64,000 bases of DNA from Trypanosoma brucei (lineage: Eukaryota): assembly GCA_000002445.1 (NCBI GenBank), contig AE017150.2:1120001-1184000 (forward strand), read 5' to 3'. The number at the start of each line of letters is the position of its first letter. The stretch's first letter is position 1. Positions 6,001 through 42,000 of the stretch are shown in pieces. Made by a program: the position numbers.

Positions 6001-9000
6001 TATCAAGAATGGTATCAGGCCCTGCAATTAGTAGTTGTTTTTCAGACGTGGCTGACTTACATATGCGTAGTATCTGTCGTAATGCAAAAAGTTCTGTGAT
6101 TTAAAATGTGGGTGAAGACAGTACGGTAACGTATCTAGTCAGAATGAATATATTTCACTCACTCTTTATTTTCAATGTAGGGAATTGTTAAAGGGGTAAT
6201 AATATTTCTTTCACCTTTCCTCTTCCTTTTTTTTAATTGCCATCTTTGTAAGGGGTGCTGTAAGTCCATCTTTTCTCATACTTTGATATCTTCATCTATT
6301 TCCTTATTACATTGAATAATGCATTAACATCTTCATTGCGATGCCAACTGAAGTATTCTGACAAGCAATAGGTGTATGCTATTGTATGTTAGTTTATGCT
6401 GCAACAGAGTTCTCCTTGGAAATGCTTGTCTTTTTTTTTCACTTTGAGGGGGTTCTACAATTGTCTTTCCCCATTCTATTCTAAGGGTTAATTACGCATT
6501 AGAAATGCTACCAGTCACTTCAGAGGTATTCCTTCTTACACAAGTATTATTTTGATGCGATCTCATGCAAGGAGAATGGAGGTAAATGGAGAATGAAACA
6601 ACTCACATTCTCCACCCACCCAATGGAGAGCATACGTTTTACCATGGAAGTCGCGCTTGAAGTATCTCCCCAAGTAGAGCAAACTAATGAGGAATTAGCA
6701 CCTAAGGGCTGCGTTGTTAAATATTTTGAAAGAGTGGGGGTTCGTACGTGAAGGATAAGGGATTTTGAGGGTGCTTACTCTTATTGTGTTTTTAATTTTT
6801 TTTTTGAAAAGGGGGGTGGTGGCCAATTTTATTATGTCACCCGACGAATGGAATTGCTTTGTACCACGCTGTTTGTGTTTGTTACATATATTGGTAAGGA
6901 ATAATGTTTTTTATGTGAATTTCAATGCGTTTGATGTTTTTTGTCACCGCACTTATGTTGAGTCTGTGCAATTTCTTTTCCCTCCATGCTGAACATACCA
7001 TTCTCTATTATTTTCTTATCTTTCATTGTTTCAGCTTTTCAGGGGAAACACATGCATACCCACGAGATGGAATACACTAAACGACACGTAACACTGTGGG
7101 AGAATGTTATAAATGCATGCAGTCCAATACTTGAGAAATGTGTATTTTCTACACCTTAACATCAATTTTTTTTTTTGTAAAGGACAAACTCACTGAGTGT
7201 TTAGTGACTGCGCTTCTTCAAACTTTTCTCCCTCAAGGCGTATTATGCAGTTGCAGAGAGTCATCTGTTTTCTGCTCCTTCTCCGCTTGCTAATGATTTG
7301 TGTTTATGCGTGTTGCTTCCTTTTTTATATTGTAAGTAATAGAAGACAAAAAAGGGGATATTACATATTACATATTTTATTTTGTATGTTAGCATGGTTG
7401 CATAATTTATTCTGCTGTAGAGGCGTGTGTTATGGATTGTAGTATTTGGAGAAGTTGTTTGACTTAAAGCTATAAAAGCTTGCCCTGTGTGTGATGGATT
7501 TTTAATTTATATAAACTTGTTTAACTTTATATTAGAATATAAATTTATTTATTGTCATTTAAATAGTTCCCCCATATGAGAAAACTAAATGAACACGTAT
7601 ATGCACGTACATGTATATTTATATTTGCATATTTGTTGTTGATCTGAGTCATATTTGAGTAATGTTGGTAAGGTAAGAAAACGGCTGTGTAATAAATCAT
7701 TTTTATTTGATATGCTTTGAGTGCGCGCGCGTGGGTTCATTAGTTCTATTATTTGAAAGGGAAACTGCAATAATTGTTTCATTATTAAAAGTTTTTCATG
7801 ACTCGTGTTTTTAAGTTTAGCATTTTGCTATTACTCAAATCATGTGAATTAAGGGAGGACTCATATCAGTATCATATGATGATATTTGAAACAATTTAGA
7901 GACGCCTGATATTACTCAATACTCTAACTCTTTTTTTTCCTTTCATATCCATTGCATTTATATTGTGATATGATAAGTTGATTTGTGTTAGCATTCAAAT
8001 GCAGCATTGTTATTATTAATATTAACTTCCTTAGGGAAATTAATTCGAAAGGAATGTTATTGTAAAAGGATTCAAATTGCAAGTAGTTATTCAGATAATG
8101 TTAATAATTGATATACAATTTTATATTTATTGTAGTTGTAGTAGTGTGCGTATTTAAACGAAGGTACCACTAATTTTGTAATTACTAAAAAGTTATAATG
8201 ATACAATTCTATTTCTTGATAATGTGAGTCCCTGAATTTGTTTTTCCCTTCATATTTTTCACTTTGCTTTTCTTTTCTTTCATTTCATATATGTTTTTCT
8301 TTTTGTTATATAGACAAACTTATTATATTATTATTTCAAGTAATTCAAAAAGATGGCAATGCTTGGTTTCGAGTCGACAGCTGAATTTTTTGCTTATCTT
8401 ACTTTTATGTTTTTTGGGATGTCGGTGATGAATGTGACGAATGCCATTTACTCCAATTATAATTTTTTCTCCCAGTACTACAAGTTTGCGCAGGGTGATG
8501 CGGATGCTGTATCAAAAAATACATCATTCTGGGAGCACATGTTCACGTATTATAATGTTGTCGTGTTTACCATGCAAGTGCTTTTGGAGACTTTTATGCT
8601 CACTCCACTGGGTAGACAGATTCCTGTTACATGGCGTTATGTCTTTGGACTCACGATTCCCATGGTTGAAATCATTGTAATTTTGGTTATTCCTGCTGTT
8701 GGAGGAACAAGTGAGGGCGGTGCGATGGCAACTATGATGATAGTTGCGTTCGTCGACGGTATTTCGAAAACACTTTGTGACTCCAGCAATGCTGTCACTA
8801 CAGGACCGTTTCCGACTAAATTCTATTCTGCGATGGTTATGGGTCTTGCTGTCTCCGGCATTATGACTTCATTTTTGTCCATTGTTATCAAAGCATCAAT
8901 GAAGGATAACTTTGAAAGCAGACGAACTCAGTCCCAAATATACTTTGGATTAGTCATGCTCTCTCAAGTAGTTGCATGCGTCCTTCTTTTTCTTCTGAGG

Positions 9001-39000: not shown

Positions 39001-42000
39001 CAAATCATGTGAATTAAGGGAGGACTCATATCAGTATCATATGATGATATTTGAAACAATTTAGAGACGCCTGATATTACTCAATACTCTAACTCTTTTT
39101 TTTTCCTTTCATATCCATTGCATTTATATTGTGATATGATAAGTTGATTTGTGTTAGCATTCAAATGCAGCATTGTTATTATTAATATTAACTTCCTTAA
39201 AGGAAATTAATTCGAAAGGAATGTTATTGTAAAAGGATTCAAATTGCAAGTAGTTATTCAGATAATGTTAATAATTTATACACAATTTTATATTTATTGT
39301 AGTTGTAGTAGTGTGCGTATTTAAACAAAGGTACCACTAATTTTGTAATTACTAAAAAGTTATAATGACACAATTCTATTTCTTGATAATTTGAGTCCCT
39401 GAATTTGTTTTTCCCTTCATATTTTTCACTTTGCTTTTCTTTTCTTTCATTTCATATATGTTTTTCTTTTTGTTATATAGACAAGCTTATTATATCACTA
39501 TTTCAAGTAATTCAAAAAGATGGCAATGCTTGGTTTCGAGTCGACAGCTGAATTTTTTGTCTATCTCACCTTCATCTTTTTTGGGATGTCGGTGATGAAT
39601 GTGACGAATGCCATTTACTCCAATTATAATTTTTTTTCAGAGTATTATAAGTTTGTTAAAAAGCAGGAAAAAGCCGAACCTGAGAATGAATCGTTCTGGA
39701 AGCACATGTTCACGTATTATAATGTTGTTGTGTTTACGATGCAAGTGGTTTTGGAGGCTTTTATGCTAACACCATTGGGCCGACGCATTCCTATTAGTTG
39801 GCGTCTCATCTTTGGACTCACTATTCCCATGGTAGAAATCATCGTTATTTTAGTGATCCCTGCTGTTGGAGGAAGTGAAAATGGTGCAATTGCAACTATG
39901 ATGATGGTTGCTTTTGTTGGTGGTATTTCCAAAACACTTTGTGACTCCAGCAATGCTGCACTTGCGGGACCTTTTCCGACTAAATTCTATGGTGCCATCG
40001 TGTGGGGACTTGCCATATCCGGACTGATGACCTCATTTTTGGCTATTGTTATACAAGCATCGATGGACAGCAGTTTTACAAGTAAAAATACCCAATCCCA
40101 AATATACTTTGGATTAGTCATGCTTCTTCAGGTGGTTGCATGCGTGCTTCTTGTCCTTCTGAGGAAAAACCCATATGCCATTAAATATGCTGCAGAATTT
40201 AGGTATGCTGCGAGGAAGGATGGAGTAACTGGTGATCGCGCAGATGGTGAATTTGATGCAAAGGGAACAGGGCCAGCAGACGAGAATAGATATCCTGATG
40301 AAAAAGAGAATAAGAATGTATTGAATGCTGATATTGATCCAGATGATATGAGGGATACAGATCAGGTTGAAGGCACTACCAACGCTCAGCAAATGCTTGA
40401 TGCGAGTGTTATGGTTGTGGTGAAACGCATTTGGCCTATGTTGGTCGCTTGCTTCTTTGTGTTCTTTGCGACACTTCTGGTGTTCCCTGGTGTATTTATA
40501 GCGGCGAAGACAGGCGATACTAGTGGTTGGTACTTTACTGTTGTCGTTGCCATGTTCAACTTGGGTGATTTCTTGTCTCGTCTGGTGCTGCAGTTCAAGC
40601 AATTGCATGTGTCTCCGCGCATGGTTATGATTGGTTCATTTGCACGTGCGTTGCTGATAATTCCACTTTCGCTATGTGCTGCAGGAACCGTTACCGGTGT
40701 ATGGCTTCCTTATATTGTTTCTCTCCTTTGGGGTCTTACGAATGGTTACTTTGGTGGCCTTTCAATGATCTATGGACCACGTACGGGATCCCTCACCACA
40801 GCGGGTCAACGCTCTCTTGCTGCTATTTGCATTAATGTGGCTCTTCTTATGGGACTTTTTGTTGGTGCTATGTTTGCATTGGCTGTTAAGGAGGGACTTC
40901 CTAAATAAATGCTCAAAAATTGTAAATAAACCATTTAATGTCGATCTTTTAATAAAATGAAAAATGAACCCCATGCTGGTATCAGCTAGGAGTGGTTTGA
41001 ATAATGCAACAAATAAGGGTTTGAAGAGAAGATATATAAGTTAAAAAATAAGGAGAAATGCCAGATAATGAATTAGATGACATGTAAAAGGAAGCAAGCG
41101 TATGCGTGTACAATTTAAGCTGTTTGGAGGGGGGACTGTAGTAAACGTGTATATACGTGTATGATTATCTTTTGTCTTTCGCACAGTGTTTCCAGACATA
41201 AATTCTCCGTCTTCTGGGGAATTCTGTGAAGGAAGAAAAATGACGGTTTGTTGGAGTTGTGTAGTTATTATTATTAAACTTTCATCATGTTTTCATTGAC
41301 TCCCTACAAATAACATAATTTGCTTCAACAATTTGTTTAGCTTTTGTAATTTTAAAAGAAGGAAATGATGATGCATTTCCATTCATTGATTTAAATTTAA
41401 TTTTTGTTCCATCTTGAACTAATTTCCTCTTTTTAAAAAACAAAAATCAGCAAAGAGATGAGAATAAAATATACAAAAGGTAGAAAGCTGAATGAACTAC
41501 AAAAAAAATATTAAATAAAACACATATACATATTTATAATATGTGTTCTTTCTGCACAAAAAAAATTGTATTAGTTACAATAATAAAAATAGTGAAGCCA
41601 GCAGGAAGTGATAATTACAATTTTCAACTCATCCCCTCTTGCCTATCTCACTATTCCCTTTCTTTTTCAGAGAAAATAACTAAAAAAGTAAGTAAACAAG
41701 AGAGAGGATAGTAATAAATAAAATGAAATCAACAATACAATATTTTAAGGGAAAATTTGATTTTACTTTTTCTTTACTTTTCACTGTTTCTGTTTCTTGA
41801 TTACTTTTACTTCCTTTCATTTCTTTCTTTTTATTCCCATGACCGTGCTATGGTGTTACGGATATGTGTGTAAGTGAGGAGTGTTGTGTGGATTTGCTTC
41901 TATTATTGTTTACTTGCCTTTGGTTGTATACCACACACCTGCTTATGTTTTCCCATATGTGTACGCCTGTAGATAACAGTGTGGGAGTTTACTCCGTGAC

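What the first reader, a model, noticed from the sequence alone, without database searches (positions are those of the whole stretch)
8353..40908. Transporter paralogs are interior mosaics inside perfectly homogenised flanks
The four NT CDSs have identical 5' flanks, identical first 34 codons (paralogs 2-4) and near-identical 3' flanks (paralogs 2 and 3). Internally they are patchworks. Paralogs 1 and 4 share loop-1 (NYNFFS) and PMVEIIVILVIP. Paralogs 2 and 3 share PMGEIIAILVIP and an identical ~95-residue TM6-loop-TM7 block. Paralogs 1 and 3 share the TM9 segment LALCVPGTIPGVWLP, while paralogs 2 and 4 share LSLCAAGT. Flank homogenisation combined with retained interior diversity suggests short-tract gene conversion shuffling substrate-specificity segments. 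It also suggests selection maintaining distinct transporter specificities (adenosine/inosine versus hypoxanthine-type in known TbNTs).
Basis: seen in the sequence. Interest (0 to 1): 0.6.

Follow-up and report, generated by a model that had tools for sequence, protein, structure and literature searches.

The report
Mosaic trypanosome nucleoside transporter gene array
These are the last four genes of the known Trypanosoma brucei chromosome 2 nucleoside transporter array (TbNT4, 5, 7, 6); their coding regions are real patchworks made by short gene-conversion tracts inside near-identical flanks, but recombination in this array was already published in 2010.

Summary
The window is T. b. brucei TREU927 chromosome 2. 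The four CDSs are 100% identical to XP_951750, 52, 54 and 56, which are TbNT4, NT5, NT7 and NT6. They alternate with 2OG-Fe(II) oxygenase genes in a 10.1-10.5 kb repeat next to VSG genes.

Every motif-sharing claim is exact. The flanks are only near-identical: 98.0-99.1% over 2.5 kb upstream.

All three possible four-sequence groupings are supported by informative sites (19, 25 and 37). These sites are strongly clustered (29 runs against 52.9±4.1 expected, P<1e-5). Six pairwise fragments pass a GENECONV-like permutation test.

Synonymous sites travel with the blocks, which excludes amino-acid convergence. CDS dS is 0.25-0.55 with dN/dS 0.21-0.30, while the flanks differ by 1-2%.

Between strains the pattern inverts. 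CDS orthologues are closer than paralogues, whereas flank paralogues are closer than orthologues. One clean 58-96 nt conversion tract is visible in the T. b. equiperdum NT6 gene.

Short-tract gene conversion is therefore supported. Selection for distinct specificities is plausible but not shown.

This is not new. Jackson et al. 2010 (PMC2854126, Table 2) list this array with PHI p<0.001 and 10-14 breakpoints.

The parts
8353..9741 (+). Paralogue 1, an ENT-family nucleoside transporter CDS. It equals XP_951750, inferred to be Tb927.2.6220 / TbNT4. It is the most divergent copy, with 120 singleton sites.
   Evidence: Exact protein match. Pfam PF01733, 99.7 bits. Name from PMC3998935. Singleton count.
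18452..19843 (+). Paralogue 2, equal to XP_951752, inferred to be Tb927.2.6240 / TbNT5.
   Evidence: Exact match. Name from PMC2835760. AlphaFold model with pTM 0.85 and 11 TM helices; best structural match is hENT1 (6OB6, 6OB7, 8TZI) with target-normalised TM-score 0.87-0.88.
28974..30374 (+). Paralogue 3, equal to XP_951754, inferred to be Tb927.2.6280 / TbNT7. The name is assigned by elimination.
   Evidence: Exact match. Position in the array order; the other five names are assigned.
39520..40908 (+). Paralogue 4, the last gene of the array. It equals XP_951756, inferred to be Tb927.2.6320 / TbNT6.
   Evidence: Exact match. Name from PMC3998935. Orthologues in DAL972 (L003) and T. b. equiperdum (L004) differ by 1.9% and 4.0%.
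36870..39611 (+). Homogenised zone of unit 4: the oxygenase 3' end, the intergenic region and the first ~92 nt of the NT CDS. Equivalent zones are 5703-8392 (in unit 1 only the first ~40 nt of the CDS), 15802-18543 and 26324-29065.
   Evidence: 0-6 mismatches per 250 columns over most of the zone, rising to 16 per 250 in one interval ~0.7-0.9 kb upstream of the ATG. 23-49 mismatches per 2,500 nt among the TREU927 copies, against 105-138 to the DAL972 and equiperdum last-gene (NT6) flanks.
19020..19313 (+). Block of 294 nt identical between paralogues 2 and 3 (29542-29835 in paralogue 3). It covers TM6 and the cytoplasmic loop.
   Evidence: Zero mismatches. The GENECONV-like fragment holds 47 polymorphic sites, P≤0.0002.
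8410..8468 (+). Tract of 59 nt identical between paralogues 1 and 4 (39577-39635 in paralogue 4). It covers the end of TM1 and the NYNFFS start of extracellular loop 1.
   Evidence: (P=0.0008).
18838..18936 (+). Tract of 99 nt identical between paralogues 2 and 4 (39906-40004 in paralogue 4), in the TM4 region.
   Evidence: (P≤0.0002).
30126..30140 (+). Micro-block at the TM9/TM10 junction shared by paralogues 1 and 3 (9496-9510 in paralogue 1), giving LALCVPGT. Paralogues 2 and 4 share LSLCAAGT instead.
   Evidence: Five consecutive 13|24 informative sites within 13 nt, alignment positions 1159-1171, one of them synonymous.
19898..25000 (+). 3' flank of paralogue 2. It is near-identical to the 3' flank of paralogue 3 (from 30437) for about 5 kb. 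The first ~55-250 nt after the stop codon differ.
   Evidence: (u3-u4 mostly 0, at most 3, mismatches per 250 columns).
5003..5962 (+). 2OG-Fe(II) oxygenase paralogue 1 ('iron/ascorbate oxidoreductase'). The other copies are at 15099-16058, 25623-26582 and 36168-37127. They alternate with the NT genes and are part of the same repeat unit.
   Evidence: Pfam DIOX_N plus 2OG-FeII_Oxy. Interior divergence island and homogenised ends.

Best explanation
The region is the distal two-thirds of the T. brucei TbNT2-7 P1-type purine nucleoside transporter array, made of 10.1-10.5 kb [oxygenase-NT] repeats.

The transporter CDSs are old paralogues, with dS of 0.25-0.55, and are kept functional by purifying selection. 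The repeat unit around them is continually homogenised by interlocus gene conversion and/or unequal crossing-over between units. As a result the flanks evolve in concert within a strain.

Homogenising tracts stop about 40-100 nt inside the CDS. Within the diverged CDS only short tracts are exchanged, from tens of nt to about 300 nt. This produces a patchwork in which different segments of one gene have different nearest paralogues.

Shown here: the mosaic, the co-transfer of synonymous sites, concerted evolution of the flanks, recent tracts between strains, and purifying selection. Inferred: the reason the CDS resists homogenisation. I think it is selection against loss of paralogue-specific residues combined with mismatch-repair rejection of heteroduplex formed in sequence that is 10-35% diverged.
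For: - **Identity of the locus.** The proteins match TREU927 chromosome 2 entries exactly. The genes alternate with oxygenase genes and lie next to VSG genes, as described in PMC2771046.
- **Mosaic.** All three quartet splits are supported in blocks: 14|23 at alignment positions 104-164 and 711-1002 (16 consecutive sites), 13|24 at 1014-1023 and 1159-1171, and 12|34 at 1074-1144 and 1314-1332. Permutation gives P<1e-5. Six fragments are significant.
- **Not convergence.** 34 of the 81 informative sites are synonymous and lie in the same blocks as the non-synonymous ones.
- **Old CDS, young flanks.** dS is 0.25-0.55 and dN/dS 0.21-0.30. Flank divergence is 0.9-2.0%.
- **Concerted flanks, orthologous CDS.** The NT6 CDS differs by 1.9% between TREU927 and DAL972, against 11-17% from its paralogues. 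The NT6 upstream flank differs by 4.6% between strains, against 0.9-2.0% among paralogues.
- **A recent discrete event.** The T. b. equiperdum NT6 gene equals DAL972 NT6 at all but 29 sites. Of these, 28 lie in CDS nt 109-174 and there match the neighbouring NT2-type gene. The tract is 58-96 nt long.
- **A second event.** DAL972 NT2 carries an NT5/NT7-type loop tract at about nt 709-805. Its protein is identical to the independently cloned AAF04490.
- **Independent prior result.** Jackson et al. 2010 report PHI p<0.001, 10 LRT breakpoints and ≥14 GARD breakpoints for this array.
Against: - Only four of the six TREU927 CDSs were available as DNA. TREU927 is not in the contig index.
- DAL972 and T. 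b. equiperdum have only 3 and 2 NT copies in their assemblies. These may be collapsed, so donors and directions of transfer cannot be assigned with confidence.
- The DAL972 middle gene is a frameshifted chimera flagged as low quality. I did not use it as evidence.
- When informative sites less than 15 nt apart are merged, the runs test loses significance (P=0.85). Most tracts are therefore very short, and the long-range signal rests mainly on the central 14|23 block.
- Nothing here separates selection from a mismatch-repair barrier as the cause of the retained CDS divergence.
Confidence: 0.85

Rival explanations
1. Recent tandem duplication of the whole 10.5 kb unit explains the near-identical flanks. 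The CDSs then diverged rapidly through positive, diversifying selection or local hypermutation.
For: Units 3 and 4 differ by only about 0.5% over ~9 kb of non-coding and oxygenase sequence. TREU927 has more copies (6) than DAL972 (3) or T. b. equiperdum (2).
Against: - Synonymous divergence in the CDS is 0.25-0.55, which is 25-100 times the flank divergence. dN/dS is 0.21-0.30 everywhere except one low-divergence window.
- NT6 and NT2 have clear orthologues in other subspecies, so these CDS lineages predate the flank homogenisation.
- Blocks shared between non-adjacent paralogues cannot arise by independent divergence.
Confidence: 0.04
2. The shared blocks reflect convergent amino-acid evolution. 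The same residues would have been selected independently in different paralogues, with no DNA exchange.
For: Some shared blocks are very short (5-15 nt) and lie in TM segments where constraints could favour a small number of alternatives.
Against: - 34 of the 81 incompatible informative sites are synonymous and sit inside the same blocks. Examples are positions 1314, 1320, 1329 and 1332, and positions 1203 and 1206.
- There are exact nucleotide identities of 59-294 nt in a background of 9-18% divergence.
Confidence: 0.02
3. The mosaic is an assembly artefact, produced by chimeric joining of reads from near-identical repeats in the reference.
For: Tandem arrays are prone to misassembly. The DAL972 middle gene looks like such a chimera, with a frameshift near codon 292 and a 'LOW QUALITY PROTEIN' flag. 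Jackson et al. 2010 warn that assembled copy number can be arbitrary.
Against: - Most tracts are 15-300 nt, shorter than a Sanger read. Chimeric assembly could not create more than ten switches per 1.4 kb gene.
- All four ORFs are intact and under purifying selection.
- The mosaic NT2 allele of DAL972 is identical to the independently cloned protein AAF04490.
- NT6 is reproduced at 98% identity in two other assemblies.
Confidence: 0.03
4. The mosaic and the flank homogenisation are real, but CDS diversity persists only because heteroduplex rejection blocks conversion in diverged sequence. Under this self-reinforcing neutral barrier, no selection for distinct transporter functions is needed.
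For: - Homogenisation ends abruptly where divergence begins, at about nt 40-100 of the CDS.
- Exchanged tracts inside the CDS are short and tend to lie in locally conserved stretches.
- Synonymous divergence is retained together with non-synonymous divergence.
- P1 transporters are described as functionally similar (PMC10208901).
- From my own knowledge, not tested here: mismatch repair limits homeologous recombination in T. brucei.
Against: - dN/dS of 0.02 for NT6 between strains and 0.2-0.3 among paralogues shows that each copy is constrained.
- The initial divergence had to be established despite conversion, which is easier if selection favoured it.
- The oxygenase genes show the same island pattern, which fits either view.
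Confidence: 0.35

Closest known systems
T. brucei TbNT2-TbNT7 P1-type nucleoside transporter array (Tb927.2.6150-6320), as analysed by Jackson et al. 2010 (PMC2854126, Table 2, row 12bi)
   Same: It is the same locus. The four proteins match TREU927 entries exactly. The same alternation with iron/ascorbate oxidoreductase genes is present. Recombination has already been reported for it: PHI p<0.001, 10 LRT breakpoints and ≥14 GARD breakpoints, with 6 copies in T. b. brucei against 3 in T. b. gambiense.
   Different: The publication gives only a table row. It does not give the block-by-block map, the flank-versus-CDS inversion between strains, the dS/dN figures or the 58-96 nt equiperdum tract reported here.
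Concerted evolution in T. brucei tandem gene arrays in general (Jackson 2007, PMC1855330)
   Same: The general pattern matches. CDS is often more variable than the UTRs, phylogenetic signal in the CDS conflicts with that in the UTRs, and GENECONV-type tracts often span start or stop codons.
   Different: I did not find the NT array in the main text or the held supplements of that paper. Here the repeat unit holds two genes, not one.
Primate L/M (red/green) opsin genes, where conversion homogenises introns while exons stay distinct (from my own knowledge, not tested here)
   Same: Non-coding sequence is homogenised between tandem paralogues, while functionally distinct coding segments stay diverged. 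This is usually read as selection against conversion of key residues.
   Different: In opsins the selected spectral-tuning residues are known. For the TbNT genes the functional determinants are not mapped. Trypanosome genes also lack introns, so the homogenised sequence is intergenic or UTR.
Segmental gene conversion producing mosaic VSG genes in T. brucei
   Same: It occurs in the same organism and also involves short-tract, homology-guided exchange among diverged paralogues. The NT array abuts VSG genes (PMC2771046).
   Different: VSG mosaics form somatically during infection under immune selection. The NT mosaics are germline differences between paralogues and strains, under purifying selection.

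Membership tests
Equilibrative nucleoside transporter family (ENT / SLC29, Pfam PF01733) | Match to the Nucleoside_tran profile above Pfam's gathering score | tested here: met
   Paralogue 1 scores 99.7 bits against a cut-off of 29.8. PF01733 is also precomputed for all array homologues.
Equilibrative nucleoside transporter family (ENT / SLC29, Pfam PF01733) | ENT fold with 11 transmembrane helices | tested here: met
   The AlphaFold model of paralogue 2 has pTM 0.85 and 11 long helices. The top Foldseek hits are hENT1 (6OB6, 6OB7, 8TZI), with target-normalised TM-score 0.87-0.88 and E about 1e-12.
Equilibrative nucleoside transporter family (ENT / SLC29, Pfam PF01733) | Nucleoside or nucleobase transport activity | not testable with these tools
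   Literature only. Km values for TbNT5, 6 and 7 are tabulated in PMC9960827. No values are listed there for TbNT3 or TbNT4.
TbNT2-7 array of T. brucei chromosome 2 | Sequence identity to the annotated TREU927 genes, in array order | tested here: met
   The four proteins are 100% identical to XP_951750, 52, 54 and 56 on the 1,193,948-bp contig. The accession-to-locus-tag mapping is inferred from order. Names come from PMC2835760 and PMC3998935.
TbNT2-7 array of T. brucei chromosome 2 | Alternation with iron/ascorbate oxidoreductase genes, and position next to the subtelomeric VSG cluster | tested here: met
   There are four DIOX_N/2OG-FeII_Oxy ORFs between the NT genes, and VSG_B ORFs at 58227-59708 and 60882-61691 on the minus strand. 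This matches the description in PMC2771046.
Interlocus gene conversion / concerted evolution | Different segments of the alignment support different topologies, with clustering beyond permutation | tested here: met
   The splits have 19, 25 and 37 sites. There are 29 runs against 52.9±4.1 expected, P<1e-5. The PHI-like test gives P=0.0008. Six fragments are significant.
Interlocus gene conversion / concerted evolution | Silent sites are transferred together with replacement sites | tested here: met
   34 of the 81 informative sites are synonymous and lie in the same blocks as the non-synonymous ones.
Interlocus gene conversion / concerted evolution | Paralogous sequences within a genome are more similar than orthologous sequences between genomes | tested here: met
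   This is met for the flanks: 23-49 against 105-138 mismatches per 2.5 kb. It is also met for the oxygenase 3' ends. It is not met for the NT CDS interiors, where orthologues are closer. That contrast is the point of the finding.
Interlocus gene conversion / concerted evolution | Identified donor and recipient for a discrete event | tested here: met
   In the T. b. equiperdum NT6 gene, 28 of its 29 differences from DAL972 NT6 lie in nt 109-174 and there equal the adjacent NT2-type gene. One caveat: this rests on single assemblies.
Selection-maintained functional divergence of paralogues | Purifying selection on each paralogue | tested here: met
   dN/dS is 0.21-0.30 among paralogues and 0.02 for NT6 between TREU927 and DAL972.
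Selection-maintained functional divergence of paralogues | Variable blocks map to the permeant pathway or alter specificity | tested here: inconclusive
   Fraction of variable positions by element: EL1 0.64, TM8 0.53, TM5 0.43, TM1 0.08, TM2 0.08, TM9 0.14. No model coordinates were available, and the profile alignment to hENT1 is weak in the N-terminal half (7.8 bits). No functional test was possible.

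The most novel reading that the evidence does not exclude
Short-tract conversion among the P1 paralogues, perhaps promoted by the array's position at the edge of the recombination-prone VSG subtelomere, may act as a combinatorial generator of strain-specific transporter variants. Examples seen here are the NT2-type EL1 in the T. b. equiperdum NT6 gene, the NT5/7-type loop in DAL972 NT2, and the NT4-type TM3-TM5 tracts in equiperdum NT2. 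These variants would differ in permeant or nucleoside-drug selectivity and be visible to selection. Under this reading the mosaicism is adaptive rather than a by-product of array homogenisation.
Probability: 0.1. Interest if true: 0.55.

Novelty: already known. Interest (0 to 1): 0.25.

Why it matters
P1-type transporters carry purine nucleosides and nucleoside-analogue drugs into African trypanosomes. Their redundancy is cited as the reason resistance through loss of uptake is unlikely (PMC10208901).

Array members exchange 60-300 nt segments, and copy number and isoform content differ between subspecies (6, 3 and 2 copies). This matters for three practical reasons:
- interpreting short-read mapping, RNA-seq and RNAi data on these genes;
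- assigning orthology between strains;
- designing chimeras to map substrate determinants.

As evolutionary biology it is a clean textbook case of concerted flanks with divergent coding cores. The phenomenon, and recombination in this array specifically, are already documented.

Tried and rejected
- **TREU927 DNA outside the window.** I tried to fetch it for the two upstream paralogues through the look-up of encoding contigs with P0004, the first oxygenase and P0005. None is on record. NT2 and NT3 of TREU927 could therefore be used only as proteins.
- **Sanchez et al. 2002** (JBC, the paper that characterised TbNT2-7). It is not held. Statements about its content come only from secondary sources or are marked as my own knowledge.
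- **Single-sequence search against solved structures.** It found nothing. A 30-sequence profile reached hENT1 only weakly in the N-terminal half. I therefore did not map individual pore residues.
- **DAL972 middle gene.** It looks like a striking NT3/NT4/NT6 chimera, but it is frameshifted and flagged as low quality. I rejected it as evidence.
- **Jackson 2007.** I did not find this array in its main text or held supplements. The relevant record is in Jackson et al. 2010.
- **Other searches.** The tandem-repeat and tRNA scans of the window found nothing.
- **Runs test with merging.** Merging informative sites less than 15 nt apart gives P=0.85. I report this as a limit on the signal: most tracts are very short.
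- **Positive selection as the source of CDS diversity.** Rejected on the dN/dS values.

Full report
**What the region is**

The window holds a tandem repeat of 10.1-10.5 kb units (self-BLAST). Each unit carries a 319-aa 2OG-Fe(II) oxygenase gene and a 462-466-aa ENT-family transporter gene on the + strand.

The four transporter proteins are 100% identical to T. brucei brucei TREU927 entries XP_951750, XP_951752, XP_951754 and XP_951756, on the 1,193,948-bp chromosome 2 contig. Two further paralogues, XP_951746 and XP_951748, lie upstream of the window.

Published locus tags are TbNT2 = Tb927.2.6150 and TbNT5 = .6240 (PMC2835760), and TbNT3 = .6200, TbNT4 = .6220 and TbNT6 = .6320 (PMC3998935). 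Combined with the array order, the window paralogues 1-4 are TbNT4, TbNT5, TbNT7 (by elimination) and TbNT6. Matching accessions to locus tags by order is my inference.

VSG genes on the minus strand at 58-62 kb fit the published description of the NT2-NT7 array. That description has the array alternating with iron-ascorbate oxidoreductase genes next to the subtelomeric VSG cluster (PMC2771046).

An AlphaFold model of paralogue 2 has pTM 0.85 and 11 TM helices. Its best structural match is human ENT1, with target-normalised TM-score 0.87-0.88.

**Check of the observation**

All motif claims are exact:
- NYNFFS and PMVEIIVILVIP occur only in paralogues 1 and 4.
- PMGEIIAILVIP occurs only in paralogues 2 and 3.
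- LALCVPGTIPGVWLP occurs only in paralogues 1 and 3.
- LSLCAAGT occurs only in paralogues 2 and 4.
- The first 34 residues (92 nt) are identical in paralogues 2-4.

The block shared by paralogues 2 and 3 is 99 identical alignment columns (98 residues). At the DNA level it is 294 nt with no mismatch (19020-19313 = 29542-29835). It covers TM6 and the cytoplasmic loop and ends before TM7.

The flank claims are right in substance but overstated:
- Exact identity upstream of the ATG runs only 21-162 nt.
- Over the 2.5 kb compared (2.4 kb upstream plus 100 nt of CDS) the copies differ at 23-49 sites.
- The 3' flanks of paralogues 2 and 3 differ just after the stop codon and then show only a handful of mismatches over ~5 kb.

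The contrast with the CDS is large. The flank has 0-5 mismatches per 100 nt and the CDS has 10-36.

**Is the mosaic more than chance?**

In a codon alignment, 330 of 1,371 ungapped sites vary and 81 are parsimony-informative. Of these, 19 support 12|34, 25 support 13|24 and 37 support 14|23. They come in blocks:
- 14|23 at positions 104-164 and at 711-1002 (16 consecutive sites);
- 13|24 at 1014-1023 and 1159-1171;
- 12|34 at 1074-1144 and 1314-1332.

The statistical tests agree:
- The number of runs is 29, against 52.9±4.1 in 100,000 permutations (none was ≤29).
- With one site per codon, P=2e-5.
- A PHI-like incompatibility statistic gives P=0.0008.
- A GENECONV-like test, which takes the longest concordant fragments among polymorphic sites and permutes site order, gives six fragments significant after Bonferroni correction. 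The strongest are 2-3 at 572-843, 2-4 at 390-488 and 1-4 at 93-113.

The finding's own refutation criterion was that all segments give the same topology. That criterion is not met, so the mosaic is real.

One limit should be stated. If informative sites less than 15 nt apart are merged, the runs test is no longer significant (P=0.85). Apart from the central block, the tracts are very short.

**Convergence, misassembly and rapid divergence are excluded**

Convergence is excluded because 34 of the 81 incompatible sites are synonymous and lie in the same blocks as the replacement sites.

Misassembly is unlikely for three reasons:
- The tracts are shorter than a sequencing read.
- All four ORFs are intact.
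- NT6 and NT2 recur in independent assemblies, and the DAL972 NT2 protein equals the independently cloned AAF04490.

Rapid divergence after a recent duplication is excluded by the substitution rates. Pairwise dS is 0.25-0.55 with dN/dS 0.21-0.30. The CDSs are therefore old and constrained, not young and fast-evolving.

**Evidence from other strains**

I fetched the arrays of T. b. gambiense DAL972 (L001, L003; 3 NT genes) and T. b. equiperdum (L002, L004; 2 NT genes).

The NT6 CDS is orthologous across strains. It differs by 1.9% between TREU927 and DAL972 (dS 0.083, dN 0.002), against 11-17% from its TREU927 paralogues.

The upstream flank behaves the opposite way. The TREU927 copies differ from each other at 23-49 sites per 2.5 kb, but from the DAL972 and equiperdum NT6 flanks at 105-138 sites. 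About 90 fixed differences are shared by all four TREU927 copies in the 0.7 kb after the oxygenase stop codon. This is direct evidence for concerted evolution of the flanks after lineage separation.

Discrete tracts are also visible:
- The equiperdum NT6 gene equals DAL972 NT6 except at 29 sites. Of these, 28 lie in nt 109-174 (extracellular loop 1) and there equal the neighbouring NT2-type gene. The tract is at least 58 nt and at most 96 nt.
- DAL972 NT2 carries an NT5/NT7-type tract at about nt 709-805.
- Equiperdum NT2 carries NT4-type tracts at about nt 309-375 and 475-488.

**Mechanism**

Shown here:
- exchange of short tracts among diverged paralogues;
- homogenisation of the rest of the repeat unit;
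- purifying selection on each CDS.

Inferred: why the CDS cores resist homogenisation. There are two non-exclusive causes:
- Selection against converting paralogue-specific residues, which would also preserve linked silent differences.
- Rejection of heteroduplex in sequence that is 10-35% diverged.

My data do not separate these two causes.

The oxygenase genes show the same island pattern. Copy 1 differs by about 25% from copies 2-4 in nt 121-660, yet shares identical ends with them. The behaviour is therefore a property of the array, not something specific to transporters.

**The 'substrate-specificity segments' idea**

Among the six TREU927 paralogues, 146 alignment columns vary. The fraction of variable positions is:
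- highest in extracellular loop 1 (0.64), the short loops, TM8 (0.53) and TM5 (0.43);
- lowest in TM1 and TM2 (0.08 each) and TM9 (0.14);
- 0.27 overall in TM segments, against 0.39 outside them.

I had no model coordinates, and the profile alignment to hENT1 was weak in the N-terminal half. I could not test whether variable residues line the pore.

The literature describes the P1 transporters as similar in specificity, with some variation in hypoxanthine and thymidine recognition (PMC10208901; PMC9960827 Table 10). This part of the interpretation stays open.

**Novelty**

Jackson et al. 2010 (PMC2854126, Table 2, rows 12bi and 12bii) already list this array and the interleaved oxidoreductase array. 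For the transporter array they report:
- 6 copies in T. b. brucei against 3 in T. b. gambiense;
- 3 shared isoforms and 3 specific to T. b. brucei;
- PHI p<0.001, 10 LRT breakpoints and ≥14 GARD breakpoints.

[quoted passage not shown] Jackson 2007 (PMC1855330) describes, for T. brucei arrays in general, CDS that is more variable than invariant UTRs and conflicting CDS and UTR phylogenies.

What I add is detail: the block map, the dS/dN figures, the flank-versus-CDS inversion between strains, and tract sizes. The finding is correct but already known, so I score its interest as low to moderate.

Noticed in passing
window 5003-5962, 15099-16058, 25623-26582, 36168-37127: The interleaved 2OG-Fe(II) oxygenase genes show the same pattern of a divergent island between homogenised ends. 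Copy 1 differs from copies 2-4 at 14-24 sites per 60 nt across most of nt 121-660 (5 in one 60-nt window), yet matches the DAL972 and equiperdum copies there (0-2 per 60 nt). The last 240 nt are near-identical in all four TREU927 copies (0-2 mismatches per 60 nt), but differ from the other strains at 8-20 sites per 60 nt in three of the four 60-nt windows.
   Followed up: yes
window 1-4900 and 9742-15000 versus 19844-25500, 30375-36000 and 40909-46060: The intergenic region between each NT stop codon and the next oxygenase gene exists as two haplotypes about 10% apart. Type A follows NT3 and NT4. Type B follows NT5, NT7 and NT6. Type B carries an extra segment of about 450 bp at 23059-23508, 33599-34050 and 44465-44914. 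The nature of this insert is unknown.
   Followed up: partly
window 9742-10900, 19844-21100, 30375-31600, 40909-42200: The proximal 3' flanks of the NT genes, probably their 3' UTRs, fall into three classes: paralogue 1, paralogues 2 and 3, and paralogue 4 (columns 4400-5300). Trypanosome mRNA levels are set largely by the 3' UTR, so this could underlie differential expression of the paralogues. I did not test this.
   Followed up: no
window 58227-59708 (-), 60882-61691 (-); GC skew changes sign near 49-50 kb: There are two VSG-type ORFs on the opposite strand, matching VSG_B and the VSG C-terminal domain. The strand composition switches after the array ends at about 46 kb. This marks the edge of the subtelomeric VSG cluster. 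The ORF at 46802-47722 (306 aa) has no Pfam match.
   Followed up: partly
L001 10001-11376 (T. b. gambiense DAL972): The middle NT gene of DAL972 reads as an NT3/NT4/NT6-type chimera with a frameshift near codon 292. It is flagged 'LOW QUALITY PROTEIN'. It could be a pseudogene or a collapsed assembly.
   Followed up: partly
L002 10001-11392 (T. b. equiperdum): The equiperdum NT2-type gene carries tracts identical to TREU927 NT4 (CDS nt ~309-375 and 475-488), although that assembly contains only two NT genes. Either the donor was lost or the array is collapsed in the assembly.
   Followed up: partly
window 39520-40908 versus L003 10001-11389: NT6 differs between TREU927 and DAL972 at 25 synonymous sites but only 2 non-synonymous sites (dS 0.083, dN 0.002). 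The silent divergence is about ten times the 0.8% average coding divergence reported for the two genomes (PMC2854126 abstract).
   Followed up: no
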